Notes: generated by a model not told the origin, from the sequence alone. DNA of 64,000 bases from Betaproteobacteria bacterium (GCA_016125475.1 WGLR01000019.1:120746-184745), one strand, 5' to 3'; positions 7,412-33,548 are shown, numbered from the stretch's first letter. Program-made: numbers and translations.

Positions 7412-7458
7412 TTCGCGTCCGCGGTCTTCCGCACCTCCTCGTGTTCCCGACGCTTCAC

Positions 7459-8658: not shown

Positions 8659-8672
8659 CAGAAGAGAAGCGA

Positions 8673-9494: not shown

Positions 9495-9541
9495 TTCCCC
9501 CGCCAGGCGTCAGGCGGGGAGCACGCAGGGAGCGCCATACC

Positions 9542-12826
<3,285 letters not shown>

Positions 12827-12836
12827 GACCGTCCGA

Positions 12837-14153
12837 ATGACGACGGCACTACGGTGTGTTTCCTGTCTGGCAGCGGTGTGTACCGTGCTCCTGTGCGGTC
12901 CGGTCGCGGCTGCGCCGGTGGACGAGCTCAAGCTGCTGCTCGCACGTGGCCAGGCCAAGGAAGCCTACGCCCGCGCCGCCAGGTATCCGGACCAGCTCGG
13001 GGAACCGCTGTTCGACTACTACTTCGGCATGGCGGCCATCGACGCCGGTCACCCGGCCGAAGGCACGCTGGCGCTGGAGCGCTACGTGATCACCTACCCT
13101 TCGGACCTCACTGCCCGCCTCGAGCTCGCACGCGGGTACTTCCTGATGGGCGACGATCGACGTGCGACCGAGGAATTCACCCGGGTCCGCCGAACGAATC
13201 CTCCCTCCGCGGTACGCACGAACATCGACACGTACCTCGCGGCCATCGACGCGCGCTCGAAACGCTACCGCCCCAGCCTCTCGCTGTTCGCGGAATTCGG
13301 GACCGGGTACGACTCGAACGTGAACGGCGGCGTCTCGAACGCGAACATCACGCTCCCCATCGGCCAGGTGATCGTGCAGGACGCCGGCGTGAAGACGGAC
13401 AACGGCTTCTACGTGGGTGCCGCCGCCTTCCAGGTGAACATCCCGTTCGCGCCCGGCTGGAGCGTGTTCGCGGGCGCCGCGGGCGACACGAAGAATCACT
13501 TCACCCAGGACCGCTTCGATCTGCGGAGCCTCACGGCGTCGGCGGGGCTGGCGCGCACCGACGACACGACGCTCGTCCGTGTCACGGGCGCGACGGGCAG
13601 TCTCTGGCTGGACGACGATCGCTACCGCGACGTCGGCAGCCTCACGGGCGAGTACTACCGGCAGATTCGGAAGGACCTCGTCGTCAGCACCTCGGCCCAG
13701 TGGGCCCAGCTCGCCTACACCGGGGGCAACGAAGCGCGCGACGCCGACCTGTTCGGCGTGACGGCCGGGCTACGCAGTCTCCGCGGCGGCAACTGGAAGT
13801 GGACCAATATCGCCTCGCTGGGCGTCGCGCAGGAACACAACCGGCGTGACCGCCGCGACCTCGGGCGCGACATCTATTCCGGCCGGCTCGGTCTCACCGC
13901 GACGCCGCACGACGGCCTCTCCCTGTACGCAACGGCGTCGGCCCAGGGCAGCTACTACAGGGAGGCGGACGCCTTTCTCGGCCAACGGCGACGCGACTGG
14001 TTCTTCGCGCTCGAAGCGGGAACGGTCCGCGCGCTCACCCGCTCGTGGAGCTTCCGGGTCGAGGTGATCGCTTCGCGCAATCGGTCCAGCATCGACCTGT
14101 ACGACTTCAACCGCAACGCGGCGAACCTGAAGCTGCGCTACGAACTCCAGTGA
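12837..14153 (+). CDS. TPR-containing outer-membrane beta-barrel protein, DUF560 / Slam-like (type XI secretion candidate)
   Basis: Signal peptide MTTALRCVSCLAAVCTVLLCGPVAAAP, then ~150 aa of TPR-like helices. The rest has alternating beta-strand pattern starting SLSLFAEFGTGYDSNVNGG, matching my recollection of the DUF560 barrel. The call is by motif recall only. Confidence 0.55.
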   Translation: MTTALRCVSCLAAVCTVLLCGPVAAAPVDELKLLLARGQAKEAYARAARYPDQLGEPLFDYYFGMAAIDAGHPAEGTLALERYVITYPSDLTARLELARGYFLMGDDRRATEEFTRVRRTNPPSAVRTNIDTYLAAIDARSKRYRPSLSLFAEFGTGYDSNVNGGVSNANITLPIGQVIVQDAGVKTDNGFYVGAAAFQVNIPFAPGWSVFAGAAGDTKNHFTQDRFDLRSLTASAGLARTDDTTLVRVTGATGSLWLDDDRYRDVGSLTGEYYRQIRKDLVVSTSAQWAQLAYTGGNEARDADLFGVTAGLRSLRGGNWKWTNIASLGVAQEHNRRDRRDLGRDIYSGRLGLTATPHDGLSLYATASAQGSYYREADAFLGQRRRDWFFALEAGTVRALTRSWSFRVEVIASRNRSSIDLYDFNRNAANLKLRYELQ

Positions 14154-14160: not shown

Positions 14161-15900
14161 ATGTTCATGCCACGTCTGCTCGGCACCGCCGTCCTGATCA
14201 TCGCCACGGTCATGGCGCCGGAAGCCATGGCCGCGGACGTCGCGGGCCGCGTGCTGCTGGCGGCAGGCGACGCGCTCGCGATCCGTTCGGGACGGGCCGT
14301 CCGGCTGACCCGCGGCGACGAGATCCGGGCTCACGACCTTCTGCGCACGGGCCGGAACAGCAACCTCCAGGTCCGCATGAGCGACTCGGGGATCATTTCC
14401 CTGCGTCCCGACTCCGCACTGTCGATCGAGGACTACGTCTACCACGGCCGGCCCGACGGTTCCGAGAACGCATTCTTTCGTCTGCTGAAGGGCGGGTTCC
14501 GGACGATCACGGGACTCATCGGACGTGTGAACAAGAGTGCCTACCACGTCCGGACCGGAGTCGCGACGATCGGCATCCGTGGAACCGCGTACGCCCTCGC
14601 ACTCTGCGATGCCGGCTCGTGTCAGTCCGCGCCCGGCAAACCGGCGGCAGACGGACTGTACGGCACGGTCACCGAGGGGCGTATCGTTGCAGCGAACAAG
14701 GCCACGCAGATCAGCCTCGCGGCGGGCCAGACTTTCTACGCCGCCAACCGTGATGCACCGTTCCAGCGGCTGCTGGCTCCCCCGCCGTTCCTGTCGGATC
14801 GCCTGCGGGGCGAGCACGGCGGCACGAGCAGACGGAGCGCCGACCACTCCGAACGGACAGGCGCGCCCGGGTCGGACAAAAGCGCGACGGAAGGGCGGGA
14901 AGAGCCGGACGACTCGACGCAGAACTCGGGTCACGCGCGCCGCCGTCCGCGAGATGCGCGACCCGGGGCGATCGTGCAGACCTCGCGGCCGCCGGAACCG
15001 CTTGCATCCGTCCCGGAGGCCGGTGACGCGGTTCCCCTGCCGTCGGAAGGCACCGACACGACCGCGCCCCTGACCGGGTCCGGCACCGCGTTGCCACCCG
15101 TGGTCTCGACCGAATCGCTGACGTCCTCCGGCGGACTGTCGGTCCTGCCGCCCGCCGACGGCTTCGTCGTGTCCTATCCGACTCCCGGTGCCGGAATCGA
15201 CGTCTTCTTCGGTGACAAGGACGAGGCCGTGTTCACCACCGCGAACTACGTCGTCCAGTTCATGACGTCCGCCGCCACGGGCGCACTGGGGCCGGGGACG
15301 GTCGTGGACAAGGGTCACTACGCCCTCGGCAATCAGGTCATCACGTGGGGACGGTGGAACGGTGGCGGCGCCGTCACGTCCGACGGCACCTACACCAATG
15401 TTCCCCTGCTGTTCGCAACAGCCAACGGCGTCAGCGGGACCAGCACGCTCACGTCGAACATGCCGCCCTCGACACTGGGTCTCGTGACCTACGTGGGCGG
15501 ACTCGGACCGCGACCCACAGCGTCGATGCCGGGCTTCACGCCGGACCAGATCGCCGGCTCCGTCGTGAACGAGTCGCTCGCCATCGACTTCACGCGGGCA
15601 AGCGCGCAACTCTCCATGGACCTCTCGTTCACGGCATCGAACACGAATGGAACGCTGACGCGCGCCTATGCGCTCTCGGGTACGGGCGGTCCGACCCAGG
15701 GACCCAACGGCGGCGACCTCGGCGGAACGCTCTCGGTCACGTGCACCGCAGGCTGCGCCGGCACCGGACCCGCGAGCGGAAAGTTCAGCATCGGTCTCAC
15801 GGGCCCCAACGGCTACGAACTGGCCGTGACGGCCGGGGGAATTCGCGACACCTCGTCGAATTTCAGCGCGTCGTTCCTGCGCATCTTCCACACCCCCTGA
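14161..15900 (+). CDS. Secreted FecR-domain protein with Pro/Ser/Arg-rich linker and Gly/Thr-rich C-terminal beta domain
   Basis: Sec signal (AMA/AD). FecR-like N-domain (GRVLLAAGDALAIRSGRAVRLTRGDEIRAHDLLRTGRNSNLQVRMSDSGIISLRPDSAL...IGIRGTAY). Disordered linker, then a C-terminal ~230 aa beta-rich domain ending ...ASGKFSIGLTGPNGYELAVTAGGI. Confidence 0.6.
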   Translation: MFMPRLLGTAVLIIATVMAPEAMAADVAGRVLLAAGDALAIRSGRAVRLTRGDEIRAHDLLRTGRNSNLQVRMSDSGIISLRPDSALSIEDYVYHGRPDGSENAFFRLLKGGFRTITGLIGRVNKSAYHVRTGVATIGIRGTAYALALCDAGSCQSAPGKPAADGLYGTVTEGRIVAANKATQISLAAGQTFYAANRDAPFQRLLAPPPFLSDRLRGEHGGTSRRSADHSERTGAPGSDKSATEGREEPDDSTQNSGHARRRPRDARPGAIVQTSRPPEPLASVPEAGDAVPLPSEGTDTTAPLTGSGTALPPVVSTESLTSSGGLSVLPPADGFVVSYPTPGAGIDVFFGDKDEAVFTTANYVVQFMTSAATGALGPGTVVDKGHYALGNQVITWGRWNGGGAVTSDGTYTNVPLLFATANGVSGTSTLTSNMPPSTLGLVTYVGGLGPRPTASMPGFTPDQIAGSVVNESLAIDFTRASAQLSMDLSFTASNTNGTLTRAYALSGTGGPTQGPNGGDLGGTLSVTCTAGCAGTGPASGKFSIGLTGPNGYELAVTAGGIRDTSSNFSASFLRIFHTP

Positions 15901-21892: not shown

Positions 21893-23872
21893 ATGTCCAC
21901 GATCGAATCCGTATTGCAGGAAAACCGGGTGTTCGAGCCGCCCGCGTCGTTCGTCGCCCAGGCGAACATCAGGGGTCTGGAGGCGTACCAGCGCCTCTGC
22001 GAGGAGGCGGAACGCGACTACACCGGATTCTGGGGCCGGCTCGCCCGCGAGAACCTGCTCTGGCACAAGCCCTTCACGCAGATCCTCGACGAGTCTGGCG
22101 CGCCATTCTTCAAGTGGTTCGCGGACGGCCAGTTGAACGTCTCCCACAACTGCCTCGATCGCCACCTCAAGACGCAGCCCGACAAGGTCGCCATCATCTT
22201 CGAGGCCGACGACGGCTCGGTCACCAAGGTGACGTACCGCCAGCTCCACCACCGTGTCTGCCAATTCTCGAACGGCCTGAAGAAGATCGGGATCCGCAAG
22301 GGCGACCGGGTGCTCGTCTACATGCCGATGTCGGTCGAGGCGATCGTCGCGATGCAGGCGTGCGCACGCATCGGCGCGACCCACTCGGTGGTCTTCGGCG
22401 GATTCTCCGCCAAGAGCCTCCAGGAACGCATCGTCGACGCCGGCGCGGTGGCCGTGATCACGGCCGACGGCCAGTATCGCGGCGGAAAGGAGATTCCCCT
22501 CAAGCCGGCCGTGGACGAAGCATTCTCGATGGGGGGATGCGACGTCGTGAAGCACGTGGTGATCTACAAGCGGACGGGCAGCGACATCCACGTGCACGCC
22601 CCGCGCGACAAGTGGTGGCACGACGTCGTCGCGAACGAACCCGAGACCTGCGAGCCGGAATGGGTCGACGCCGAGCACCCGCTCTTCATCCTCTACACCT
22701 CGGGTTCCACCGGCAAGCCGAAGGGCGTCCAGCACTCGAGCGCGGGGTACCTCCTCCACGCGATGCTCACGATGCAGTGGACCTTCGATCTCAAGCCCCA
22801 GGACATCTTCTGGTGCACGGCGGACGTGGGCTGGGTGACGGGTCACACCTACATCGCGTACGGCCCGCTCGCCTGCGGCGCGACCCAGATCGTGTTCGAG
22901 GGCGTGCCCACCTATCCCGACGCGGGTCGCTTCTGGAAGATGGTGGCGGAACACAACGTCTCCATCTTCTACACGGCCCCCACCGCGATCCGCTCCCTCA
23001 TCAAGGCTTCCGAAGCCAACGAGAAGGCACACCCCCGGAACCACGACCTGTCGAGCCTGCGCCTGCTCGGATCGGTGGGCGAGCCCATCAATCCGGAAGC
23101 GTGGATGTGGTATCACACCCACGTGGGGGGTGGCCGCTGCCCCATCGTCGACACCTGGTGGCAGACCGAGACAGGCGGTCACATGATCACCCCGCTCCCG
23201 GGCGCGACGCCGCTCAAGCCCGGCTCGTGCACCCTGCCCCTGCCCGGCGTGATGGCCGCGATCGTGGACGAGACGGGTCACGACGTCGAGAAGGGCAAGG
23301 GCGGGATCCTCGTCATCAAGCGTCCGTGGCCCTCGATGATCCGCACCATATGGGGTGATCCCGAACGGTTCCGCAAGAGCTACTACCCCGACGACTTCCA
23401 GGGTCGCTACTACCTCGCCGGCGACGGCGCCAACCGCGATATGGACGGCTACTTCTGGATCATGGGCCGCATCGACGACGTGCTGAACGTCTCGGGACAC
23501 CGTCTCGGCACGATGGAAATCGAGTCCGCGCTGGTCGCGAACTCCCTCGTCGCCGAAGCGGCCGTCGTCGGCAGGCCTCACGACGTGAAGGGCGAGGCCG
23601 TGGTCGCGTTCGTCGTGCTGAAGGGCGCGCGCCCCGACGGCGACGCGGCGAAGGAAATCGCAGCCACGCTGCGCAACTGGGTGGCCCAGGAGATCGGCCC
23701 GATCGCCAAGCCCGACGAGATCCGCTTCGGCGACAACCTGCCCAAGACCCGCTCCGGGAAGATCATGCGCCGGCTCCTGCGCTCGCTCGCGCGGGGCGAG
23801 GAGATCACCCAGGACGTCTCGACGCTCGAGAATCCGGCGATCCTCCAGCAGCTCGGTCAGGCCGTGAAGTAG
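21893..23872 (+). CDS. acs: Acetyl-CoA synthetase
   Basis: 659 aa. AMP-binding motif [13 protein letters not shown]-terminal SGKIMRR, and an N-terminus typical of Acs. Confidence 0.95.
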
Positions 23873-24238: not shown

Positions 24239-24721
24239 ATGCGTTCACGTACCGAGCCGGATCACGGGCACGCCATGGCACTCGATGAATCGGCGGCGGG
24301 TGCCGCCAAAGGCTCCCGCACCCGCCCGCTGATCGAGCCGGTCTCCATCGAGGAGGCGCTCGAGGCCGCACGCGTCTGGACCCGGGAGGACCGGGCGCTC
24401 ACCGACGGCCGCGGAGCCCTCAACCGGGCGATCAAGAGCCTGCGGGCCTCGCTCGAGAAGGTCGGACTCGACCCGTCCGAAACGGCGGGGGACGCGCTTC
24501 CCACACCTGATGCCGTGCTCGCCGCGATGGGGTCCGCCGACAAGCAGCTCTCCCGTGCCGTGTCCGCACGCGTGAACACCCGCCAGGCGTGCACGGACGC
24601 CCTGCTGCAGGCGGAAGCCGTGCTTCAGAACCTCTCCAACCTGCGTCTGGCCCGAGTCGTGACGATCCTGCTTGCCGTCCTGCTCGCCGGCGGCCTCGTA
24701 TTTCTGCTGATCCATGGCTGA
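24239..24721 (+). CDS. Tail-anchored membrane protein (helical N-domain, single C-terminal TM)
   Basis: 160 aa (or 148 aa from ATG 24275). C-terminal TM helix LARVVTILLAVLLAGGLVFLLI. 8-nt overlap with the downstream ATPase gene. No recognisable family. Confidence 0.55.
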   Translation: MRSRTEPDHGHAMALDESAAGAAKGSRTRPLIEPVSIEEALEAARVWTREDRALTDGRGALNRAIKSLRASLEKVGLDPSETAGDALPTPDAVLAAMGSADKQLSRAVSARVNTRQACTDALLQAEAVLQNLSNLRLARVVTILLAVLLAGGLVFLLIHG

Positions 24722-27530
24722 GTCGTCGCGCAACCGCTACGACGAGGCCCTCGAGCGCCTCGCGCGCGCCTCGCAGCTGCCCCAGGTCAAGGCCGCGCGC
24801 GCCGCGCTCGAAGACGCACTCGCACGGTTCCGGCAGGCCGGCGAGGAAGTCGACGCGGCGGGCAACGCAGCGGGCGCCCTGATCGGCGAGGCATTCCGCC
24901 ATCGCAAGCTGCTCGAGGACCAGCAGAAATCCCACCGCTTCGACGCCCCGGCGGATCACCTCATCAAGAAGTGCTACGGCGAACTGCCCACGCACCTCGT
25001 GCGCGCCTTCACGCGAGACTCGCACGTGGAATTCTCGCTGCCGCACACGAAGCGCTGGGAAAAATGGACGCCGCCCCAGACGCCGGTCGGACTCGTGGAG
25101 CCGGGCACGCCGGGCTTCCTGATGCGCTGGGGCTCGTACGACCCGGCGGGCAAGAGCCAGCTCCTCTTCACGGCGATGCCGCTCATCGGCGGTGGGCGGC
25201 CCTGGCTGATCCTGTCGGACGACGAGTCCGACGAGCGCGCGCGCGATCTCATGCGTGCACTCGCACTTCGCATCGCGTGCATGCTTCCCCAGCAGTCGCG
25301 CTTCACCTTCCTGGACCCGCTGCACTACGGGCAGACGTTCCCGCTGCAGCGATACCTGCCGGCCGTGAGGGAGACATCCGCGGATCCCGCGCTCGACCTG
25401 CAGCCGATCCAGGCCGACGTGCGCCGGATCATTCGCGACGTGGTCGCATTCAACCCGAGCTTCGACACGCTGCCGGCCGAACAGCAGGCTGCCGAACGGT
25501 ACGAATTCATCTTCGCGGCAGACTTTCCGACTGCGAAGGCCTACGACCGCCGCGTGACGGACATTCTCTTCGACATCGGGCGCGCAGGGCCCAAGGCGGG
25601 CCGCTACGTCATCCTGCACATGAACGAGGGTGCGGAACTGCCCCACGGCGTGGATCTCTCGCAACTCGGCAACGTCTGGACGATCGATCTCCGGAAGGGG
25701 GCCAACACCTTCGCCGACGTTCCACCCGAGCCGGAGATCCAGCAGTCCCTCCTGGAGCGCGTGCGCGGCGCCGTTCCCAGCCGCCGCTCCGCAGCGTTCA
25801 CGGACGTCCTGCCCGCGCGGGAGGCGTGGTGGACCGGCTCCTCGAGCCGCCGCATCGAGACCTCTCTCGATGGGCGCCCCGACGGCCTCGACATCGTGTT
25901 CGGCCAGCGGGACGACGGAACCGAACTGGTGCACGGCATCCTCGCCGCCGCGTCGGGGGCCGGCAAGTCGAACCTCCTGCATGCACTCATCCTCGGTCTC
26001 GCGACGCGGTACGCCCCCGACGAGCTCCATCTCTACCTCATGGATCTGAAGCAGGGGGTGGAATTCCAGCCCTACGGGCAGCTTCCCCACGCGGCGGTCG
26101 TCGCCTACAACACGGACCCCGCCCTCGCCCGCGCCGTGCTCGCGGAACTGCGCCGGGAGATGCAGCGACGCTACGAGGATCTGTTCCGGCGCGCGAACGT
26201 CCAGAAGCTCGAGGACTACCGCGACGCGGGTCAGCCTCACGGGTCCATCCCGCGTGTGCTCCTGATCGTCGACGAGTACCAGGCCCTGTTCCAGGGTGCC
26301 GACGCCCAGGAGGTCTCCGCCGACCTCCTCGCCCTCGCGACGCAGGGACGGGCCGCCGGCATCCACATGCTCCTCGGCTCGCAGGCGTTCCGGGCGGTCG
26401 GCATGCAGGCATCCGCGCAGATCCTCAACAACATCAACCTGCGCATGGCGATGCAGATGCCCGCCGCCGACGCGCAGGCCCTGACCGAACTGGAACGCGA
26501 GGCCAAGCAGCTCGTCGCGAAGTGCGACGCCCCCGGAAAGGTCGTCCTGAATACCGCGGCGGGTCGGGACGGTTCGAACCGTCTCGGACAGGTCGTGCTC
26601 GTGCCGGCCCGGGATCGCTCGGAGATCCTCTCGGGCATGGCGGAACTCGCCACGCAGTGGCCCCCCGAGCGACGCGCCCTCTGGCCGCGCACGCAGGTGT
26701 TCGACGGCAGCTCGGCACCGCCCGTCGCCGAAAACGGACTCGCCCGACAGGCTGCGCAGGCCGGTCACCCGCTCGGGGCGGACGATCTTGCACGCTGGGC
26801 AGCGCAGGCGCGGTCTGCCGGAGGTCTCGGACGCACCGACTGGCGTGCCGGCGACCATCCCGTGCCACTGCTGCTGGGTCGCGAGTACGCCGTGCACGGC
26901 GAAGCCTGCAGCGTGCTCCGGCGGCTGCCGAACCAGAATCTCCTCGTCCTCGGCGGCAGTGCCGCCGGGCGGCTCGGCATGCTGGCGGGGATCATGGCCA
27001 CGGTCACGGCGATCGCGCCCGAGCATCTTGCGTCCATTCGGGTGCTCGACCTGTCCGGCGACCCCAGCGTGGCCGAAGTCCTGGCGCGCGCAGGCGCCCG
27101 CGCATCGGTGTGCCAGGACCGGACCGAGGCGCTCTCCATGCTGGATCCCGCGTCGGCCACTGAAGCGGACCTGCTCGTGCTGATCGAACCGGACCGCGTG
27201 CCGGACCTCATGCGGCCGAGCGACCCTCTCGAACGTTCTCCGGGTGTGGAGGCGCTCGAGAAGCGCCTGCGCGAGGGCCCTCTCGCAGGCTTGCACACGG
27301 TGCTCGTGTGCACCGGGTTGCCCGCTCTCACCCGGGTGCTCGGTCGCCGGGCCGCCAACACGTTCGCGTGGCGTGCCATCACGCAGGTTTCGCAGGAGGA
27401 CAGCCAGGATCTCCTTGGCAACCGGATGGGATCGCAGCTGAGGCAGGAAGGCATGGGCGGGCCCGAACCCGCCCTGCTCGCGGACATGGACGGCAACCGC
27501 TTCACGCGGTTCATGCCCTACGGACTCTGA
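24714..27530 (+). CDS. FtsK/SpoIIIE-family ATPase, EssC/EccC-like, no TM or FHA domain
   Basis: 938 aa. Intact Walker A SGAGKSN (K at about codon 418, nt 25956-25970), Walker B RVLLIVDEYQALF (~26262-26280), and RAAGIHMLLGSQ. Flanked by two degenerate copies of the same module: N-terminal IGGGRPW / FIFAADF / GRYVILHMN and C-terminal LVLGGSAAGRLGM / DLLVLIEPD / GLHTVLVCTG. Confidence 0.85.
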   Translation: MAESSRNRYDEALERLARASQLPQVKAARAALEDALARFRQAGEEVDAAGNAAGALIGEAFRHRKLLEDQQKSHRFDAPADHLIKKCYGELPTHLVRAFTRDSHVEFSLPHTKRWEKWTPPQTPVGLVEPGTPGFLMRWGSYDPAGKSQLLFTAMPLIGGGRPWLILSDDESDERARDLMRALALRIACMLPQQSRFTFLDPLHYGQTFPLQRYLPAVRETSADPALDLQPIQADVRRIIRDVVAFNPSFDTLPAEQQAAERYEFIFAADFPTAKAYDRRVTDILFDIGRAGPKAGRYVILHMNEGAELPHGVDLSQLGNVWTIDLRKGANTFADVPPEPEIQQSLLERVRGAVPSRRSAAFTDVLPAREAWWTGSSSRRIETSLDGRPDGLDIVFGQRDDGTELVHGILAAASGAGKSNLLHALILGLATRYAPDELHLYLMDLKQGVEFQPYGQLPHAAVVAYNTDPALARAVLAELRREMQRRYEDLFRRANVQKLEDYRDAGQPHGSIPRVLLIVDEYQALFQGADAQEVSADLLALATQGRAAGIHMLLGSQAFRAVGMQASAQILNNINLRMAMQMPAADAQALTELEREAKQLVAKCDAPGKVVLNTAAGRDGSNRLGQVVLVPARDRSEILSGMAELATQWPPERRALWPRTQVFDGSSAPPVAENGLARQAAQAGHPLGADDLARWAAQARSAGGLGRTDWRAGDHPVPLLLGREYAVHGEACSVLRRLPNQNLLVLGGSAAGRLGMLAGIMATVTAIAPEHLASIRVLDLSGDPSVAEVLARAGARASVCQDRTEALSMLDPASATEADLLVLIEPDRVPDLMRPSDPLERSPGVEALEKRLREGPLAGLHTVLVCTGLPALTRVLGRRAANTFAWRAITQVSQEDSQDLLGNRMGSQLRQEGMGGPEPALLADMDGNRFTRFMPYGL

Positions 27531-27543
27531 CCGGAGGCAGGCG

Positions 27544-27819
27544 ATGTCGCTCGACGAGACCTTCGACCAGATGCGTACCTTCGCCGCCGCGCTCGAGCGA
27601 TTCGACGAAGCGCTGCGCGCGAGCCACCGGCAGCTCGCGGAGCGCCACGCAGCGGTCGAGGGACTCTGGCAGGATGCGTTCGCACGGGAGTATGCCGCTG
27701 CGTGGGAGCCGCTCGCCCGGGATCTCGAACGATGGGTCCAGCACGACGGGACCGAGTACCGGGACTTCGTCACGACCAGGCTGCGGGCGCTTGCGCAGTA
27801 CCTCGAGGACGGATCGTGA
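27544..27819 (+). CDS. WXG100-like small helical protein 1 (W-Q-D variant)
   Basis: 91 aa, all-helical composition, central turn motif EGLWQDAFAREY (W at 27667-27669). Paralogous to the next gene. 13-nt gap after the ATPase gene. Confidence 0.6.
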   Translation: MSLDETFDQMRTFAAALERFDEALRASHRQLAERHAAVEGLWQDAFAREYAAAWEPLARDLERWVQHDGTEYRDFVTTRLRALAQYLEDGS

Positions 27820-28097
27820 CGGACGCCGCTCGCCTCTCGGCGCTGCTCGAGGACTACGCCTCGGCCCTCGACGGCCATCTCGTTTCCGTGCGCGAGGAGT
27901 TCGCACACCTGGAGCGTGCGTGGGCCGGCCTGTCGGACGTCTACGCGGGAACGGCCGCCGACCAGTTCCGGAACGTCTTTCTTGCGTCGGCGGGACGCAT
28001 GCGCGACTACGAACGCGACGCGACGACCCTGGTCGCGGTCCTGCGACGACGGATCGAGGCGCTGCGCGACTTCGACACCCCCGACCCGAACATCTGA
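27816..28097 (+). CDS. WXG100-like small helical protein 2 (W-A-G)
   Basis: GTG start in a GTGA overlap with the upstream stop. 93 aa. Central LERAWAGLSDVYAGTAADQF contains a canonical W-x-G (27921-27929) at about the same relative position as in ESAT-6-type proteins. C-terminal RIEALRDFDTPDPNI. Confidence 0.65.
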   Translation: MTDAARLSALLEDYASALDGHLVSVREEFAHLERAWAGLSDVYAGTAADQFRNVFLASAGRMRDYERDATTLVAVLRRRIEALRDFDTPDPNI

Positions 28098-28104
28098 GTC
28101 GCCC

Positions 28105-29106
28105 ATGGCGCTGATCGATCCACGACAGCTCATACCGTTCCTCGAGGACTTCGAGGACGATCTCAAGCGCCCGCAGTACGCCCTGCAGGAAGCCGCCGAG
28201 GACACCCGGCGAAGTCAGGCCGCCGTTTCCGAGGAGTGCACGCACGTTCTCGCACGCCTGCACGGCACCGTTGCCGACGCTCGCCACGCCGTGAAGGATG
28301 CTGTCGCCGCCGGAAACGATGCACGGCAGGTGCTCGCGGACGCCTCCGCGGCGCTCAACGAAGCACAGGCAGCCGTAAGCAGTGCACGCTCGGCGCTGTC
28401 CGCCGCACAGAGTGCCGTCGCGCAATGGCAGGCGCGGCTCTCCGACGCGCGGCGCTGGCTCGCCTCGGCACAGGGGCAGCGTGCCGAGGCCGAAACCGCG
28501 CTGAACCGTGCGCGCTCGGCAGCGGCGGACGCCGAGCGCGAGGTGAACCGTGCCTCCCAGCAACTGGCCCAGTGTCAGGCCAACGTCACGCGTGACCAGC
28601 AGGGAAACGTGCGCCAGCCCGACTGCGGCTGGGCAATGGCGGCACTCAACAACGCGCGCGGAACGCTGGCGGAAGCCACACGCCGCGTCGGCGAGGCCCG
28701 GTCGGCACTCGATCATGCGATTCAGCAGTGCCATCTCGCCGAGGCCCGATGCGCGGAGTGCGAGGATCGGCTGGCCCGTGCGCAGGACGCCGTGTCCGAG
28801 GCCCATCGCGCGATCCAGACTGCCGAGCGCGCGGAAGCAGCATCCCGGCGCGCGGAGGACCTCTCGCGATCGTGCGTCGCCGAAGCCGAAGCCGCGCGCA
28901 CCGCCGCGGAACGTGCCCTGTCCACCGCCGAGGGTGGCATGGCCGCCGCCCAGGACGGTGTGCGGGCCGCCGAGGAAGCCGCGACACACTCGACCACCGC
29001 CCAGCGCGCCGCGGACGACGCCGGTGAACACGCCCGTCGCGCACGGAATGCCATCGGCGACCGCATCGACGCCCTGCGGGACTTCGACCGCGGGGCCCGG
29101 TTCTAA
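28105..29106 (+). CDS. Ala-rich coiled-coil protein (333 aa) with C-terminal IDALRDFD motif
   Basis: ATG 28105, 7 nt after the previous stop. Long A/Q/R/E-rich heptad-like helices with 6 Cys. The C-terminus GDRIDALRDFDRGARF echoes the C-terminus of the preceding WXG-like protein. Confidence 0.6.
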   Translation: MALIDPRQLIPFLEDFEDDLKRPQYALQEAAEDTRRSQAAVSEECTHVLARLHGTVADARHAVKDAVAAGNDARQVLADASAALNEAQAAVSSARSALSAAQSAVAQWQARLSDARRWLASAQGQRAEAETALNRARSAAADAEREVNRASQQLAQCQANVTRDQQGNVRQPDCGWAMAALNNARGTLAEATRRVGEARSALDHAIQQCHLAEARCAECEDRLARAQDAVSEAHRAIQTAERAEAASRRAEDLSRSCVAEAEAARTAAERALSTAEGGMAAAQDGVRAAEEAATHSTTAQRAADDAGEHARRARNAIGDRIDALRDFDRGARF

Positions 29107-29118
29107 AAGCGACCTGCG

Positions 29119-29547
29119 ATGCACGACGGAATCGTCCACGCCCGAACGCTGCTCACCAGCGCATCCGAAGCCGCGCAGCGCGTCACGCTCGCGGTTCGCC
29201 GGTGGGAGGAATCGACCGACCACGCCCGCTCGGCCTGGGACGATGCGGCCGGACGGGATGTCTTCAACCGGCATCTCGAGCCCCAGCGCAGCGCATTGCA
29301 GACTGCCCTGCCCGCTTTCGGCTCCGCGGTGGAAGGGCTGACCTATGCGATAGACCGCGCGTCCCTCGCGGAGGATGCCGTATCCGCCGCTGCCTCGGAC
29401 ATCTCGCTCGCCGCGGCGTCGATCGGTCGCGCGCGCAACGACGCGTCCCACGCCCGCGCCGAGGTCGCGACGGCGCGCAGCGAGGCAAGTTCGGCGACCG
29501 CGATCGCGCAGTCGGTGACGGGCAGGATCAACGCTCTCGGAGGATAG
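29119..29547 (+). CDS. Helical protein (142 aa) with W-D-D turn motif
   Basis: ARSAWDDAAGRDVFNRHL resembles the W-x-G/A...F turn of the two small proteins. The C-terminal half is Ala/Ser-rich helix ending GRINALGG. Confidence 0.55.
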   Translation: MHDGIVHARTLLTSASEAAQRVTLAVRRWEESTDHARSAWDDAAGRDVFNRHLEPQRSALQTALPAFGSAVEGLTYAIDRASLAEDAVSAAASDISLAAASIGRARNDASHARAEVATARSEASSATAIAQSVTGRINALGG

Positions 29548-29551
29548 GGGG

Positions 29552-30247
29552 ATGGCAGCCAGACAGGGCTTCGGAAAGCGGATTCGCGCGGGCTGGTGGT
29601 ACGGACTTCGGCAGCGCGATCCGGTCATCTGGATATCCACCCTCCTCATCGTCGTGCAGGTGCTGGTGGTTCCCTACCTGGGCTTGCGCAAGATCGCGAC
29701 GGGTCATGTCGTCGGCTCGGGCGACGACTTCAGCCTCGCCAACCTCTTCGTACGCAGCGCTCCGGATCCCGACGCCTCCGACCCTCCGTCAGTCGGGCAA
29801 TCGGGCTGGACGTACCGCCAGAGCACGGACATGAGCCCCGTGCCGCGATACAACCCTCGCAACCGTCGCCTCCCTGCCTATACGCCAGTCCGCGTGATCG
29901 GGGCCGCGTCCGACGGCAAATGGATGCGTGTGCAGGCCACCCTGCACGACGGGAGTCGTGTCTCGGGTTTCGTGATGACCGACCGCCTCATCTCGGCCGA
30001 CCCGACGAGCGACGCCGAACCCGAGACCGGAACGGTCATCGTCCGGGGCAGGGACGCCCCGCTGCTAGCGGCGCCCGCGATGGATGCCGTGATGGTCGGC
30101 ACGGCAGCGGTGGGCACGAAGCTCACGGTGCACGCACGTGTACGTCGCGGGGAACTGATGAAAGGTGTCCCGGGCGACTACCTGCTCGTAGACAGTGGCT
30201 CGAAGGGACAGGCGTGGATCCTGGCCAATCGGGTGAAGAAGCCCTGA
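29552..30247 (+). CDS. Membrane protein with one TM helix and two SH3b-like modules
   Basis: TM helix VIWISTLLIVVQVLVVPYLGL. Two repeats with SH3b-like pattern: YTPVRVIGAASDGKWMRVQATLHDGSRVSGFVMTDRL and GTAAVGTKLTVHARVRRGELMKGVPGDYLLVDSGSKGQAWILANRV. Confidence 0.6.
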   Translation: MAARQGFGKRIRAGWWYGLRQRDPVIWISTLLIVVQVLVVPYLGLRKIATGHVVGSGDDFSLANLFVRSAPDPDASDPPSVGQSGWTYRQSTDMSPVPRYNPRNRRLPAYTPVRVIGAASDGKWMRVQATLHDGSRVSGFVMTDRLISADPTSDAEPETGTVIVRGRDAPLLAAPAMDAVMVGTAAVGTKLTVHARVRRGELMKGVPGDYLLVDSGSKGQAWILANRVKKP

Positions 30248-30647: not shown

Positions 30648-30738
30648 GGAGAGGTGGATGAGTGGTTTAAGTCGCACGCCTGGAAAGCGTGTTTAGGGTA
30701 ATACCCTAACGCGGGTTCGAATCCCGCCCTCTCCGCCA
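30648..30738 (+). tRNA. tRNA-Ser (anticodon GGA), encoded CCA
   Basis: Acceptor GGAGAGG/CCTCTCC, anticodon arm CACGC-CTGGAAA-GCGTG, long variable arm TTTAGGGTAATACCCTAAC, T-arm GCGGG-TTCGAAT-CCCGC, discriminator G then CCA. Confidence 0.9.
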
Positions 30739-32168: not shown

Positions 32169-33215
32169 TCAGCGCCGTTCGTACCTGACGACCTGGCGGG
32201 GACCCACCTCTGCCCCGTAGACATTGCCTTGGCCATCCACGGCAACACCCTCCGCGCCACTCGTGAGCGAGTGGTCGGGGTCGGGCTCCGGATCGGGGAT
32301 GAAGGCGGTCACGAAGCCGTCCTTCGCGCTGCCGATATAGATGCCCCGCCGCCACCCCGGATTGCGCTGAGCGTTGGATTCGGAATCCGTCGCGTACAGC
32401 ACGTCGTTCCTGTCGATGAAGAGGCCGCTCGGCCGGCCGAACTGTGTCCACGTCGCGAGGTGCTTTCCGGACTGGTCGAAGATCTGGATGCGGCTGTTCT
32501 GCCGATCGGCGACGAACAGGCGCCCCTGCGAATCCATGGCCAGGGCGTGGGGTTCGTTGAACTCTTCCCGGCTGCTGCCCGGCATGCCGAATTCCATGAG
32601 ATACGTGCCGTCCGGCGCGTACTTCACGATGCGGTTGTTGGTCGGCTCGCCGGGATTCGACGCGTGGCCGTCCGCCACGAAGATGCTGCCGTCGGGTGCG
32701 ACCAGCACGTCATTGGGCTTGCGCAGCGTATGCCTGCCGTTGCCGGGAACACCTTTCGTTCCGAGCGTCATGAGCAGCCTGCCCTCCGGGCTGAACTTGT
32801 AGACCACGTGCCCCCAGCCCTTCGGCACCGGCGCGTAGCCCACGGCATCCGTGACCCACACGTTGTCCTGCGAATCCACGAAGATTCCGTGCGGCCACGC
32901 GAACATGCCCGCACCGAAGCTGCGGACGAGATTGCCCTGCAGATCGAACAGCAGGATGGGGTCGACGTCGCTCCCCGCGCACAGGTTCGCGCCGCAGCGC
33001 TCGGCCACCCAGATGTGCCTGCCATCGTTCGCGGGATAGATCGCGCTCGTCGCGCCCCACTTCCGCCCGTCGGGCAATCTGCCCCACCCGTCGTGACGTT
33101 CGTAAGGGTTCTTCGCCACACACGGATCGGCGCTGGCCGTCGACGACAGGGGCCCCGCAACCGTCACCAGTGCGAGTGCGGCCGCGACCGCGAGCTGCGC
33201 ACGAACGGTCCGCAT
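32169..33215 (-). CDS. Secreted NHL-repeat six-bladed beta-propeller protein
   Basis: Only the last ~348 codons of ORF 32169..35336 are plausible. Signal peptide MRTVRAQLAVAAALALVTVAG. Repeated NHL-like blades (PHGIFVDSQDNVWVTD, PNDVLVAPDGSIFVADG, PHALAMDSQGRLFVADRQNSRIQIFD, PSGLFIDRNDVLYATD). Alternative ATG at 33263. Confidence 0.75.
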   Translation of the reverse strand: MRTVRAQLAVAAALALVTVAGPLSSTASADPCVAKNPYERHDGWGRLPDGRKWGATSAIYPANDGRHIWVAERCGANLCAGSDVDPILLFDLQGNLVRSFGAGMFAWPHGIFVDSQDNVWVTDAVGYAPVPKGWGHVVYKFSPEGRLLMTLGTKGVPGNGRHTLRKPNDVLVAPDGSIFVADGHASNPGEPTNNRIVKYAPDGTYLMEFGMPGSSREEFNEPHALAMDSQGRLFVADRQNSRIQIFDQSGKHLATWTQFGRPSGLFIDRNDVLYATDSESNAQRNPGWRRGIYIGSAKDGFVTAFIPDPEPDPDHSLTSGAEGVAVDGQGNVYGAEVGPRQVVRYERR

Positions 33216-33548
33216 GCGGGACACGGGCCCGGCGACACGACGTGAATTCCTGCTCGGTGACATCGATGATCCTCCCGTAGGTATCCTGCCCCGAAGGGAC
33301 TGAACGCGCGCGAGTATAAGTCGACTGCCCGCGGCGTTCGCTGCCGACCGGGGGCTGACCCCGGCCTCATCCATTCGGATGATGTTCCCCCTGGCCCTTC
33401 CCTGACAATTTTCGGAGGCGCATCCTGTAGTCCGTCCCGAGACCCCCTCCCGTCGCGGTCCGGTGACGCCCGTGCTGCGGCGGCCGGGCGGTTCACCGGT
33501 GCCCGTCGAGCGAGTCACGACGGTTCGCGAACAGAGGAGGAAAAGAAC

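What the first reader, a model, noticed from the sequence alone, without database searches (positions are those of the whole stretch)
24239..30247. Type VII (ESX/Ess)-like secretion core in a diderm-type genome, lacking all canonical T7SS membrane components
Seven co-directional genes are packed with 4-13 nt gaps or 4-8 nt overlaps. They encode a tail-anchored TM protein, a 938-aa FtsK/SpoIIIE ATPase, two tandem ~92-aa helical paralogues with a central W-x-[G/D] turn (WQD, WAG), a 333-aa Ala-rich coiled coil, a 142-aa helical protein with AWDDAAG, and a TM protein with two SH3b-like modules. An FtsK/SpoIIIE ATPase encoded next to a pair of ~100-aa WXG100 proteins is the defining signature of type VII secretion in Actinobacteria and Firmicutes. 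Here it sits in a chromosome whose synteny (smc-zipA-ligA, dapC-dapD-dapE-prmB, PEP-CTERM, RND adaptor, DUF560 OMP) points to a Gram-negative proteobacterium. I see no EccB/D/E, MycP, EssA/EssB/EsaA equivalents and no outer-membrane conduit. Either this is a minimal or novel export or effector-delivery system, or the ATPase-WXG pairing has been co-opted for another function.
Basis: partly seen in the sequence, partly recalled or inferred. Interest (0 to 1): 0.9.

Follow-up and report, generated by a model that had tools for sequence, protein, structure and literature searches.

The report
Mobile type-VII-like cassette in Gram-negatives
This is a real, conserved six-gene mobile cassette, related to Gram-positive type VII secretion systems and found in double-membraned bacteria; its class was noted by computer analysis in 2012, and nobody has shown what it does.

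Summary
The seven genes are real and tightly packed, as described. Six of them (g1-g6) recur in the same order in 13 further loci. These come from Burkholderiales, Gemmatimonadota, Vibrio, Pseudidiomarina, a Deinococcus plasmid and metagenomes, always in different surroundings, so this is a mobile cassette. g7 is optional.

The 938-aa ATPase is EccC/EssC-like by sequence and by predicted fold. It has three tandem FtsK-type domains, and only the middle one keeps Walker A/B (K418, D520/E521). It has no transmembrane helix. g1 is a tail-anchored membrane protein. In some relatives a coiled coil plus a hydrophobic segment is fused to the ATPase, and the separate g1 gene is then absent.

The best solved-structure match of g3 and g4 is Helicobacter pylori HP0062, a WXG100-like hairpin. 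They fall below Pfam's WXG100 cutoff. g5 is predicted as a helical hairpin about 155 residues per arm. g6 carries an invariant W-x-D. No EccB/D/E, MycP, EssA/B or EsaA equivalents were found.

Zhang et al. (2012) already described this class as "mobile versions of T7SS": solo WXG proteins with a YueA-like ATPase that has three domains, only the middle one active. It is therefore a new member of a known but functionally untested kind. Export across the inner membrane is the likeliest function but is unproven. A cytoplasmic defence role is not excluded.

The parts
24239..24721 (+). g1: 160-aa tail-anchored membrane protein, with a helical N-terminal part and a single TM helix at the extreme C-terminus
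   Evidence: The hydrophobic segment at aa 140-158 has KD 3.02. Only 0-2 residues follow the TM and 2-6 K/R precede it in all 9 orthologues examined. It lies directly upstream of the ATPase in all loci whose ATPase lacks an N-terminal hydrophobic segment. It is absent in L062/L063, where the ATPase carries an N-terminal coiled coil plus hydrophobic segment.
24656..24712 (+). C-terminal TM helix of g1 (aa 140-158)
   Evidence: Kyte-Doolittle scan.
24714..27530 (+). g2: 938-aa soluble EccC/EssC (YueA)-like ATPase with an N-terminal helical region and three tandem FtsK-type domains
   Evidence: Pfam FtsK_SpoIIIE 1.7e-28. NCBIfam EccCb/EccCa about 1e-28 and EssC 7e-24, against FtsK 1e-5. Family profile against PDB: EccC 4nh0 2.5e-54. 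AF2 pLDDT 86. Foldseek top hit EccC cytoplasmic domain, 3.5e-28. No TM helix.
24714..25001 (+). g2 N-terminal helical (coiled-coil-like) region, aa 1-96
   Evidence: AF2 secondary structure: H2-18, H23-76, H78-90, H93-96.
25101..25703 (+). g2 domain 1 (aa ~130-330): degenerate alpha/beta P-loop-like domain without a Walker A motif
   Evidence: AF2 model. The family alignment shows 'GGRPW' in place of a P-loop. This region defines the family: 263 clusters at 50% identity with E<=1e-3.
25851..26603 (+). g2 domain 2 (aa ~380-630): the only catalytically intact ATPase domain
   Evidence: Walker A G415-x-G417-K418-S419 and Walker B D520-E521 are invariant in 27 family members. Best sequence match is EccC D1.
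25956..25970 (+). Walker A motif G-A-G-K-S (aa 415-419; K418)
   Evidence: Invariant columns in A6.
26271..26276 (+). Walker B acidic pair D520-E521
   Evidence: Invariant columns in A6.
26856..27518 (+). g2 domain 3 (aa ~715-935): degenerate ATPase-like domain, candidate substrate-binding domain
   Evidence: AF2 model. The P-loop position reads 'GGSAxARLG', with no K[ST]. Foldseek aligns it with EccC/EssC D2-D3 structures. The substrate-binding role is inferred by analogy with EccC D3.
27544..27819 (+). g3: 91-aa HP0062-like WXG100-superfamily hairpin protein with turn motif W42-Q43-D44 (27667-27675)
   Evidence: Pfam WXG100 3.2e-5, 24.5 bits, below the cutoff of 27.3. The family profile's best PDB hit is HP0062 (3fx7/2gts) at 1.9e-5, then the ESAT-6-like MAB_3112 at 0.0036. 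The C-terminal motif L-x-x-L-x-x-[YF]-L is conserved.
27816..28097 (+). g4: 93-aa WXG100-like paralogue. The conserved turn is Y43-A44-G45 (27942-27950), and W36 and G45 are invariant.
   Evidence: Pfam WXG100 7.3e-4 and TIGR03930 1.1e-3. Family profile against PDB: HP0062 0.042, then weak EsxA/EsxB hits. The C-terminal motif L-x-R-F-D is conserved.
28105..29106 (+). g5: 333-aa Ala-rich antiparallel helical hairpin, about 155 residues per arm. A short beta-hairpin loop at the exact midpoint is flanked by Cys157 and Cys174 (28573-28626).
   Evidence: Single-sequence AF2 pLDDT 88.8: H6-159, loop 160-174, H175-273, H278-332. Conserved N-terminal D-P-R-x-L-I-P-x-L-E and C-terminal L-R-x-F-D-R motifs. 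Cys positions. Foldseek gives only generic long-hairpin matches, none with E<=0.001.
29119..29547 (+). g6: 142-aa helical protein with invariant W40-x-D42 in 'W-D-D-A-A-G' (29236-29244)
   Evidence: Alignment A5. The WXG100_2 Pfam hit (E=0.11) is not significant. hhalign to the g3 family aligns the W-x-D motifs at E=0.044, which is not significant. Orthologues follow g5 in all complete loci.
29552..30247 (+). g7: optional 231-aa bitopic membrane protein, with a TM at aa 25-43 (29624-29680) and a C-terminal SH3b domain at aa 172-225 (30065-30226)
   Evidence: KD 2.37. SH3_3 8e-6. The L001 orthologue passes the SH3_3 cutoff. Found only in the window, L001, L011 and L060. Periplasmic placement of the SH3b part is inferred from the single N-terminal TM.

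Best explanation
The locus is a horizontally mobile, type-VII-related module of double-membraned bacteria. It belongs to the class that Zhang, Aravind and colleagues called 'mobile versions of T7SS', and its closest characterised relative is the H. pylori HP0062/HP0066 cluster.

Shown here:
- A tail-anchored membrane protein (g1) always encoded just upstream. In some relatives a coiled coil plus hydrophobic segment is fused to the ATPase N-terminus instead.
- Two tandem HP0062-like WXG100-type hairpin proteins (g3, g4).
- A very long helical hairpin (g5).
- A third W-x-D helical protein (g6).

Inferred mechanism:
- g2 forms a hexamer, as FtsK-family ATPases do. It is held at the cytoplasmic face of the inner membrane through coiled-coil contacts between its N-terminus and g1.
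- g3 and g4 form an ESAT-6/CFP-10-like four-helix heterodimer.
- The related C-terminal helix motifs (L-x-x-L-x-x-[YF]-L in g3; L-x-x-F-D in g4 and g5) are recognised by the non-catalytic third domain, as EsxB's tail is by EccC D3.
- ATP hydrolysis in domain 2 drives export of g3/g4, g5 and perhaps g6 across the inner membrane.
- Where present, g7 tethers the site to peptidoglycan through its SH3b domain.
- What happens beyond the inner membrane is unknown.
For: Class identity:
- ATPase profile and fold matches favour EccC/EssC over FtsK or TcpA.
- Three domains with only the middle one intact, across 27 homologues. This is exactly the published diagnostic (PMC3482391; PMC11090510).
- The g2 family profile matches a Helicobacter sp. 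plasmid ATPase encoded in an HP0062-like cluster across all three domains, 238 bits.
- The best solved-structure hit of g3 and g4 is HP0062.

Mobility:
- The same g1-g6 order occurs in 13 other loci with unrelated flanks. These include a Deinococcus plasmid between IS elements, a contig with relaxase, NikA and DUF932 genes, and one copy split by an IS.

Membrane association:
- g1 is tail-anchored in all 9 orthologues examined.
- Family members of about 1050-1110 aa carry an N-terminal coiled coil plus a hydrophobic segment. In L062/L063 such a fused ATPase is followed by g3-g6 equivalents with no separate g1.
- More distant ~1300-aa Planctomycete relatives have 1-2 TM helices at aa ~210-280, before the ATPase domains. 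EccC/EssC likewise carry TM helices ahead of their ATPase domains.

Export precedent in the clade:
- In the Helicobacter cluster, the gene after the WXG gene encodes a helical protein ending in a WHH/colicin-DNase toxin, followed by a SUKH immunity gene. That is a polymorphic-toxin layout, and such a toxin has to leave the cell.

Shared C-terminal motifs of g3, g4, g5 and HP0062.
Against: - The ATPase has no TM helix. The only membrane elements are single-pass helices (g1, g7), so no obvious channel exists. No polytopic partner and no outer-membrane component is encoded.
- The WXG100 hits are below the curated cutoffs.
- The known T7 export motifs were not found by eye in g3 or g4: YxxxD/E in both, HxxxD/ExxhxxxH (PMC3935865) in the g4 C-terminus.
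- No toxin/immunity pair or other evident cargo is present in this cassette.
- Related ATPase-WXG modules are embedded in CoCoNuT/TerY-P defence operons. Bell et al. note that without TM domains 'a different mechanism appears likely'.
- In single-TM fused variants, a true membrane span would put the N-terminal coiled coil on the opposite side from the ATPase. That conflicts with the N-in tail-anchor reading of g1. Charge flanks are mixed and several segments contain prolines.
- Sequence homology between g1 and the fused N-termini is not detectable (under 6 bits).
- No secretion data exist for any member, HP0062 included.
Confidence: 0.55

Rival explanations
1. A non-secretory conflict or defence module. 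The EssC-like ATPase and its helical partners act inside the cell at the membrane. They could, for example, sense or respond to invading DNA or phage by remodelling or assembling the long coiled-coil protein. No protein is exported.
For: - Homologous ATPase plus two-WXG modules sit inside CoCoNuT type III-A/TerY-P defence operons, and their ATPases also lack TM helices (PMC11090510; PMC4978471).
- The cassette travels on islands, plasmids and IS-flanked segments, sometimes next to helicases, a HerA-like ATPase or RhuM.
- No channel-forming or outer-membrane protein is encoded.
- g5 and g6 give weak coiled-coil matches to JetC, LmuB and SMC models.
Against: - PADLOC finds no defence-system match beyond the shared FtsK domain (SspH, mad8) and coiled-coil noise.
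- None of the seven cassette proteins shows a nuclease or other effector domain.
- A membrane anchor (g1 or a fused hydrophobic segment) is present in every complete locus examined.
- g7 carries an SH3b domain, predicted to be periplasmic.
- The Helicobacter relative has a toxin/immunity layout, which implies export.
- No close relative occurs in viral contigs.
Confidence: 0.25
2. A canonical type VII secretion system core, whose missing membrane components are encoded elsewhere in the genome.
For: EccC/EssC-like ATPase next to tandem WXG100-like genes.
Against: - The same self-contained six genes move between phyla and replicons with unrelated flanks, so they cannot depend on host-specific partners.
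- The ATPase lacks the TM helices and has no FHA hit in Pfam.
- There is no EccB/D/E, MycP, EssA/B, EsaA or YukD hit in any cassette gene, and none among the ten other window ORFs scanned at E<=1e-5.
- All named carriers are double-membraned lineages in which no T7SSa or T7SSb is known.
Confidence: 0.05
3. A DNA-translocating or conjugation-related FtsK/TraB/TcpA-type motor carried by a mobile element. The small helical proteins would be accessory DNA-binding or partition factors.
For: - The FtsK/SpoIIIE domain. Public annotation calls homologues 'DNA translocase FtsK' or 'DNA segregation ATPase'.
- One locus is adjacent to a relaxase.
Against: - Profile and fold matches to FtsK motor domains and TcpA are far weaker than those to EccC/EssC and cover one domain only.
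- No FtsK gamma or other DNA-binding domain was detected.
- Most loci have no relaxase or other conjugation genes.
- The partner proteins are WXG100-like.
Confidence: 0.05

Closest known systems
'Mobile versions of T7SS' of Zhang, de Souza, Anantharaman, Iyer & Aravind 2012 (Biol Direct 7:18, Table 1 footnote 6). The same operon type is mentioned again by Bell et al. 2024, citing Anantharaman et al. 2012.
   Same: Solo WXG-type small proteins next to a distinct YueA/EssC-like ATPase with three FtsK/HerA domains, only the middle one active. Found in beta-, gamma- and epsilon-proteobacteria, planctomycetes and others, and apparently mobile. All of these features were verified here.
   Different: The passages I could read do not describe the other conserved genes of this cassette: tail-anchored g1, the 333-aa hairpin g5 and the W-x-D protein g6. 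I could not read the 2012 Mol Biosyst paper by Anantharaman et al., so I cannot say whether they are described there. No experiment exists for any member.
Helicobacter pylori HP0059-HP0066 'WXG100 secretion system' cluster (HP0062 crystal structures 3FX7/2GTS; HP0066 ATPase). Examined here through a related cluster on the Helicobacter sp. NHP19-012 plasmid (L065).
   Same: - HP0062 is the best solved-structure match of g3 and g4, and its W-R-D turn resembles g3's W-Q-D.
- The 823-aa Helicobacter ATPase lacks TM helices by eye and matches the g2 family profile over all three domains, 238 bits.
   Different: - The Helicobacter cluster has one WXG gene, a helical protein ending in a WHH/colicin-DNase toxin, a SUKH-1 immunity gene and an Hsp70-like gene.
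- It has no g1, g5 or g6 equivalents detectable by profile.
- The window cassette has no toxin or immunity gene.
CoCoNuT type III-A associated EssC-like/WXG100 extension (Bell et al. 2024, eLife RP94800)
   Same: A TM-less EssC homologue with three ATPase domains, only the central one active, and an N-terminal coiled coil. Two WXG100 proteins, one lacking WxG, followed by a coiled-coil protein and a small protein.
   Different: There the coiled-coil protein is fused to a D-ExK nuclease and the module sits between VWA genes of a McrBC-type defence operon. Here the coiled-coil protein has no nuclease domain and the cassette stands alone with a membrane anchor. No sequence comparison was possible because no accessions were retrievable with these tools.
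Canonical T7SSa (ESX: EccB-E, MycP, EsxA/B) and T7SSb (EssA/B/C, EsaA/B, EsxA) of Actinomycetota and Bacillota
   Same: EccC/EssC-type multi-domain FtsK ATPase. Small helical-hairpin WXG100-superfamily proteins encoded in tandem alongside it. A non-catalytic C-terminal ATPase-like domain.
   Different: - The ATPase is not membrane-embedded, and only one domain has intact Walker motifs.
- All other core membrane components are absent.
- The WXG100 matches are sub-threshold, and the YxxxD/E and HxxxD/ExxhxxxH signals were not seen.
- The hosts are double-membraned.

Membership tests
Type VII secretion system (T7SSa/T7SSb) | EccC/EssC-type FtsK/SpoIIIE ATPase with tandem P-loop domains | tested here: met
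   NCBIfam EccCa/EccCb 1e-28 and EssC 7e-24 against FtsK 1e-5, all far below the equivalog cutoffs. PDB profile search: EccC 2.5e-54. AF2 plus Foldseek: three domains aligned to the EccC cytoplasmic domain, 3.5e-28. Only the middle domain has intact Walker A/B.
Type VII secretion system (T7SSa/T7SSb) | ATPase anchored in the membrane by its own N-terminal TM helices (with FHA or DUF domains) | tested here: not met
   No hydrophobic segment above KD 1.6 in g2 or in the ~940-aa homologues. No FHA hit. A separate tail-anchored protein (g1) or, in some relatives, a fused hydrophobic segment takes this place.
Type VII secretion system (T7SSa/T7SSb) | WXG100 family substrate(s) (PF06013 / TIGR03930) | tested here: inconclusive
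   g3 scores 24.5 bits and g4 20.2 bits against a cutoff of 27.3. TIGR03930 gives 15-19 bits against 44.85. Family profiles hit HP0062 (1.9e-5 and 0.042) and ESAT-6-like proteins more weakly. Turn motifs are WQD and YAG rather than WxG.
Type VII secretion system (T7SSa/T7SSb) | Conserved membrane/accessory core (EccB, EccD, EccE, MycP; or EssA, EssB, EsaA, EsaB/YukD) | tested here: not met
   No Pfam or NCBIfam hit to any of these in g1-g7 at E<=1. None in ten other window ORFs scanned at E<=1e-5. None in the precomputed Pfam lists of the other loci.
Type VII secretion system (T7SSa/T7SSb) | C-terminal export signal YxxxD/E or HxxxD/ExxhxxxH on substrates | tested here: not met
   By-eye inspection of the g3 and g4 sequences and alignments found neither pattern conserved. 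A different shared motif is present: L-x-x-L-x-x-[YF]-L in g3 and L-x-x-F-D in g4 and g5 (motif definition from PMC3935865).
Type VII secretion system (T7SSa/T7SSb) | ATPase-dependent secretion of the small proteins | not testable with these tools
   Needs fractionation or secretome experiments.
Diderm 'mobile T7SS version' (Zhang et al. 2012) / HP0062-HP0066-type module | YueA-like ATPase with three HerA/FtsK domains, only the middle one active | tested here: met
   AF2 model with three alpha/beta domains. Walker A/B only in domain 2 across 27 homologues. Definition from PMC3482391.
Diderm 'mobile T7SS version' (Zhang et al. 2012) / HP0062-HP0066-type module | Adjacent solo WXG-type small proteins not fused to toxins | tested here: met
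   g3 and g4 are 91 and 93 aa and lie immediately downstream. Their best structural relative is HP0062.
Diderm 'mobile T7SS version' (Zhang et al. 2012) / HP0062-HP0066-type module | Sporadic distribution in double-membraned lineages with signs of mobility | tested here: met
   Burkholderiales, Gemmatimonadaceae, Vibrio, Pseudidiomarina, Acetobacteraceae, Planctomycetota, Ca. Magnetoglobus and a Deinococcus plasmid. Flanks are unrelated, with IS elements and relaxase genes nearby.
Diderm 'mobile T7SS version' (Zhang et al. 2012) / HP0062-HP0066-type module | ATPase homologous to the Helicobacter cluster ATPase (HP0066 type) over its full three-domain length | tested here: met
   The A6 profile matches the Helicobacter sp. 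plasmid ATPase at 238 bits, covering profile positions 164-582 and 721-932. The E-value there refers to a 29-sequence set, so the bit score is the relevant number.
Known anti-phage defence systems (PADLOC-DB v2) | Match of the component proteins to a defined system's models | tested here: not met
   Only the generic FtsK domain of SspH/mad8 and coiled-coil noise (JetC, LmuB) matched. g1, g3, g4 and g7 gave no hits.

The most novel reading that the evidence does not exclude
The six-gene cassette could be a self-sufficient protein-export machine of a kind not yet characterised. A soluble EssC-like hexamer would dock onto a ring of single-pass tail-anchored g1 helices that form the inner-membrane conduit. 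It would export the roughly 23-nm g5 hairpin, capped or chaperoned by the three W-x-[DG] hairpin proteins, and g5 would bridge the periplasm. That would amount to a minimal type-VII-derived secretion or contact apparatus adapted to double-membraned cells.
Probability: 0.12. Interest if true: 0.85.

Novelty: new member of a known kind. Interest (0 to 1): 0.5.

Why it matters
Type VII secretion is treated in most of the literature as a Gram-positive and mycobacterial trait. This T7SS-related class in Gram-negative and other double-membraned bacteria has been noted only in footnotes and side remarks since 2012 and has never been tested.

This window gives a clean, compact example. The comparison made here defines:
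- a conserved six-gene core;
- a candidate membrane anchor, supported by gene-fusion evidence;
- candidate recognition motifs;
- a list of culturable carriers (Vibrio sp. 10N, Pseudidiomarina sediminum, Gluconacetobacter and Novacetimonas species, and a Deinococcus actinosclerus plasmid).

That makes one question directly testable: can an EssC-like ATPase without its own membrane domain, and without the usual T7SS partners, move proteins across a membrane? If so, what does it deliver? A negative answer, meaning a cytoplasmic defence role, would also be informative for the CoCoNuT/TerY-P systems that carry related modules.

Tried and rejected
- Defence system: the PADLOC scan gave only a generic FtsK domain and coiled-coil noise. 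I did not adopt this as the main reading but kept it as a rival.
- Phage origin: PHROGs gave only FtsK-like 'moron' families for g2 and one weak coiled-coil hit for g6. The scan of viral contigs found only distant single-domain matches at 24-35% identity. Rejected.
- DNA translocase or conjugation motor: FtsK and TcpA matches are much weaker than those to EccC/EssC. Rejected as the main reading.
- Homology among g3, g4 and g6 by hhalign: E = 0.004, 0.044 and 0.066. Suggestive only, and not used as proof.
- Sequence homology between g1 and the N-termini of fused ATPases: under 6 bits. The fusion argument rests on architecture and gene order only.
- g5 fold search: only generic long helical hairpins (chemoreceptor, AhlB/SmhB pore toxins, SMC arms), none with E<=0.001. 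No functional inference drawn.
- Homologue searches for g5 returned nothing, with the full length swamped by Ala-rich words and the N-terminal 55 aa giving no hits. g5 was therefore modelled from a single sequence.
- The 2012 Mol Biosyst paper by Anantharaman et al. is not held. Its content is cited only through papers that quote it.

Full report
**1. The observation**

The window carries seven co-directional ORFs between an acetyl-CoA-synthetase-like gene (21893-23872; only its 83%-identical counterpart in L001 was checked) and a tRNA-Ser(GGA) gene at 30648-30738.

| Gene | Coordinates | Length |
|---|---|---|
| g1 | 24239-24721 | 160 aa |
| g2 | 24714-27530 | 938 aa |
| g3 | 27544-27819 | 91 aa |
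| g4 | 27816-28097 | 93 aa (GTG start) |
| g5 | 28105-29106 | 333 aa |
| g6 | 29119-29547 | 142 aa |
| g7 | 29552-30247 | 231 aa |

High-GC DNA produces many spurious ORFs, for example a 1257-aa antisense ORF over g2. These seven are nevertheless real genes, because their order is conserved elsewhere (section 2).

**2. Conservation and mobility**

The ATPase has about 29 full-length relatives in the word-indexed protein search. An exhaustive search with its first 400 residues found more. This is the part that does not resemble ordinary FtsK domains. It matched 263 clusters at 50% identity with E<=1e-3 and 124 with E<=1e-10, mostly 920-1100 aa long.

Where a source names the organism, it is one of these:
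- Burkholderiales
- Gemmatimonadaceae
- Vibrio sp. 10N
- Pseudidiomarina sediminum
- Neokomagataea, Gluconacetobacter, Novacetimonas and Acetobacter
- Planctomycetota
- Candidatus Magnetoglobus
- Deinococcus actinosclerus (on a plasmid)

All of these are lineages with an outer membrane (established knowledge).

I examined 13 further loci: L001, L002, L005, L006, L009, L010, L011, L059, L060, L061, L062/L063, L064 and one JGI contig without DNA. Wherever the contig is long enough, the order is the same:
- a small membrane protein;
- an ATPase of about 940 aa;
- two proteins of roughly 85-105 aa;
- one protein of about 330 aa;
- one protein of about 142 aa.

Profile scores confirm homology of the divergent copies. 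For the Deinococcus copy, g3, g4, g5 and g6 score 70, 75, 125 and 37 bits. For L062 they score 19.5, 27, 113 and 33 bits.

The flanking genes differ in every case:
- The Deinococcus copy lies between IS701/IS4 transposases on a 188-kb plasmid.
- L060 lies beside relaxase, NikA-like, DUF932 and RhuM genes.
- In L010 an IS element has inserted between the g4 and g5 equivalents.
- L001, a Burkholderiales MAG, shares the acs flank with the window.

g7 occurs only in the window, L001 (after a 1.9-kb insertion that includes a secreted SNase-like gene), L011 and L060. Elsewhere other genes follow g6. In Vibrio these are a GDPD protein with a lipoprotein-like N-terminus and a 799-aa protein. The conserved unit is therefore six genes and it is mobile. 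No close relative was found in viral contigs.

**3. The ATPase (g2)**

- Pfam finds a single FtsK_SpoIIIE domain at aa 406-558.
- NCBIfam ranks EccCb and EccCa (about 1e-28) and EssC (7e-24) far above FtsK (1e-5). All are far below the equivalog cutoffs because only one domain matches.
- A 27-sequence family profile searched against PDB sequences gives Thermomonospora EccC 2.5e-54, EccC5 5e-45, YukB 2e-32, FtsK 1.5e-18 and TcpA 5e-16.
- The AlphaFold2 model has mean pLDDT 86. It shows an N-terminal helical region (aa 1-96) and three alpha/beta domains at about aa 130-330, 380-630 and 715-935.
- Foldseek's best match is the three-domain cytoplasmic part of EccC (3.5e-28, about 950 aligned columns). 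EccC and EssC D2-D3 structures follow. FtsK motor domains match only one domain.
- Only domain 2 has Walker A (G415-x-G-K418-S) and Walker B (D520-E521), and these are invariant across the family. Domain 1 reads 'GGRPW' at the P-loop position and domain 3 reads 'GGSAxARLG'.
- There is no transmembrane helix.
- By sequence the active domain is closest to EccC D1. I could not resolve whether domain 1 corresponds to EccC's 'DUF' pseudo-ATPase domain.

**4. The membrane anchor (g1)**

All nine g1 orthologues examined end in a hydrophobic helix. Zero to two residues follow it and 2-6 Lys/Arg precede it. This is the signature of a tail-anchored protein with a cytoplasmic N-terminus.

Three lines link g1 to the ATPase:
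- g1 always lies immediately upstream, and in the window it overlaps g2 by 8 nt.
- Family members of about 1050-1110 aa (P0154, P0176, P0182, P0190, P0191, P0203, P0256) have a different N-terminus. It reads: about 100-130 aa of coiled coil, then one or two hydrophobic segments, then another coiled coil, then the ATPase. That is the architecture of g1 joined to g2.
- In L062/L063 such a fused ATPase (P0154) is followed by g3-g6 equivalents, and no separate g1 gene is present.

More distant Planctomycete relatives of about 1300 aa have one or two TM helices at aa ~210-280. EccC and EssC likewise carry TM helices ahead of their ATPase domains.

Two caveats apply. g1 and the fused N-termini show no detectable sequence similarity. 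And a true single span in the fused forms would place the N-terminal coiled coil on the far side of the membrane. Charge flanks are mixed and several segments contain prolines, so a re-entrant anchor is possible. Membrane association of the family is well supported. The exact topology is not.

**5. The small proteins**

- g3 and g4 hit Pfam WXG100 at 3.2e-5 and 7.3e-4, both below the gathering score.
- A profile of eight g3 orthologues finds Helicobacter pylori HP0062 as the best solved structure (3fx7/2gts, 1.9e-5). The ESAT-6-like MAB_3112 (0.0036) and EsxA (0.05) follow.
- The g4 profile also ranks HP0062 first (0.042), with weak Esx hits behind it.
- HP0062 is a helix-hairpin-helix dimer with 'WRD' at the bend. 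It is encoded near an FtsK/SpoIIIE gene and was likened to ESAT-6 by its crystallographers (PMC3397514).
- g3 has W42-Q43-D44 at the equivalent place.
- In g4 the aligned position is Y43-A44-G45, with G45 and the upstream W36 invariant.
- g6 has an invariant W40-x-D42 inside 'W-D-D-A-A-G'. Its relation to WXG100 is only suggestive.
- g3, g4, g5 and HP0062 end in related amphipathic motifs. g3 and HP0062 have L-x-x-L-x-x-[YF]-L. g4 and g5 have L-x-x-F-D.
- The published T7 signals YxxxD/E and HxxxD/ExxhxxxH (PMC3935865) were not seen by eye: I looked for the first in g3 and g4 and for the second in the g4 C-terminus.

**6. g5 and g7**

g5 is modelled with pLDDT 88.8 from a single sequence. It forms one long antiparallel helical hairpin: helix 6-159, a short beta-hairpin loop, then helices 175-273 and 278-332. 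That is about 23 nm if fully extended (my estimate from 1.5 Å per residue). The loop sits at the exact midpoint and is flanked by Cys157 and Cys174. Cysteines appear at these two alignment positions in most of the orthologues aligned. The conserved N- and C-terminal motifs therefore lie together at the open end. The fold search returns only generic long hairpins.

g7 has one N-terminal TM helix. Its C-terminal SH3b domain is just under the Pfam cutoff in the window and over it in L001. A possible second SH3b module is weakly supported.

**7. What is known**

The decisive comparison is with the literature.
- Zhang et al. [quoted passage not shown] - Bell et al. 2024 describe the same kind of TM-less, middle-domain-active EssC homologue next to CoCoNuT type III-A systems. 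It comes with two WXG100 proteins and a coiled-coil protein. They note that it also occurs as a stand-alone mobile element (PMC11090510).
- Uchiyama et al. 2016 list a 'WXG100 secretion system' cluster in H. pylori that includes HP0062 and HP0066 (PMC4978471).
- Sutcliffe 2011 is cited for sporadic ESX homologues in Proteobacteria (PMC4010439).
- A 2024 survey of new T7SS variants covers only Gram-positives (PMC11217815).

I verified the relationship directly. A Helicobacter sp. plasmid cluster (L065) encodes these genes:
- a WXG100-like 89-aa protein (25 and 20 bits against the g3 and g4 profiles);
- a 340-aa helical protein ending in a WHH/colicin-DNase toxin;
- a SUKH-1 immunity protein;
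- an 823-aa ATPase with no evident TM helix, which matches the g2 family profile over all three domains (238 bits).

That layout is typical of an exported polymorphic toxin. It is the best indirect argument that this ATPase clade moves proteins out of the cytoplasm.

**8. Interpretation**

Class identity is well supported. This is a member of the diderm 'mobile T7SS-like' class, nearest to the HP0062/HP0066 type.

It is not a member of canonical T7SSa or T7SSb. The ATPase is not membrane-embedded, the other core membrane proteins are absent, and the WXG100 matches and export motifs fail the curated definitions.

The most likely mechanism is export of the hairpin proteins across the inner membrane, driven by a g1-tethered g2 hexamer. 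This is inference by homology, gene fusion and the Helicobacter toxin layout. I give it roughly even odds.

The main rival is an intracellular conflict or defence role, as suggested by the CoCoNuT/TerY-P associations. The absence of any polytopic channel or outer-membrane component weighs against a complete secretion pathway.

**9. Novelty and interest**

This is a new member of a known kind.

What this analysis adds:
- the conserved six-gene definition;
- the split and fused membrane anchor;
- the motif set;
- the g5 hairpin;
- culturable or plasmid-borne carriers.

No member has been tested experimentally, so the class remains a worthwhile and tractable target. Interest is moderate.

Noticed in passing
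window 30648-30738: tRNA-Ser(GGA) lies 400 nt downstream of g7, so the cassette sits between the acs gene and a tRNA gene. tRNA genes are common island insertion sites. The Burkholderiales MAG L001 shares the acs flank.
   Followed up: partly
window 9416-10729: A T2SSE-family (type II/IV secretion) ATPase ORF (Pfam 7e-38) sits between a class I/II aminotransferase gene (7441-8658) and an M20 peptidase (dapE-like) gene (10734-11903).
   Followed up: no
window 12798-14153 and 14161-15900: A 451-aa ORF with good coding statistics has no Pfam hit at E<=1e-5. The next gene has a FecR domain.
   Followed up: no
window 24432-28205 (- strand): A 1257-aa antisense ORF spans g1-g4. It is an artefact of the 70% GC content and not a gene. 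Similar long shadow ORFs occur across the window.
   Followed up: partly
window ~32169-33300 (- strand): The C-terminal part of the long minus-strand ORF reads, by eye, like a secreted repeat (beta-propeller-type) protein, for example 'GRLFVADRQNSRIQIFD'. No domain search was run.
   Followed up: no
L065 (Helicobacter sp. NHP19-012 plasmid) 4446-8848: An HP0062-like WXG gene is followed by a 340-aa helical protein with a WHH/colicin-DNase toxin domain, a SUKH-1 immunity gene, a 77-aa ORF and a TM-less three-domain ATPase. Upstream is a 628-aa protein that reads like an Hsp70-type ATPase by eye but has no Pfam hit.
   Followed up: partly
L062 10673-14537: In the locus with the fused anchor-ATPase, the cassette is followed by a 471-aa protein and an 814-aa DUF87/HerA-like ATPase with a TrwB-like domain. 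A second FtsK/HerA-superfamily motor therefore sits next to the first.
   Followed up: no
L010 1409-5936 and 13936-14841: This locus has a second FtsK/SpoIIIE protein (1057 aa) next to a PadR-like protein and a Ser/Thr kinase, upstream of the cassette. It also has an extra 109-aa ORF after the ATPase and an IS (DDE_Tnp_1) inserted between the g4 and g5 equivalents.
   Followed up: no
L001 7557-9178 and 10484-12336: In the Burkholderiales MAG, a 296-aa minus-strand ORF and a signal-peptide-bearing SNase (thermonuclease-like) gene are inserted between g6 and g7. The g6 equivalent there contains an in-frame stop. Two further ORFs of 304 and 322 aa downstream of g7 were not examined.
   Followed up: partly
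g5, window 28573-28626: A cysteine pair (Cys157, Cys174) brackets the hairpin-tip loop. Cysteines appear at these two alignment positions in most of the orthologues aligned. If they are disulfide-bonded, that would point to exposure outside the cytoplasm.
   Followed up: partly
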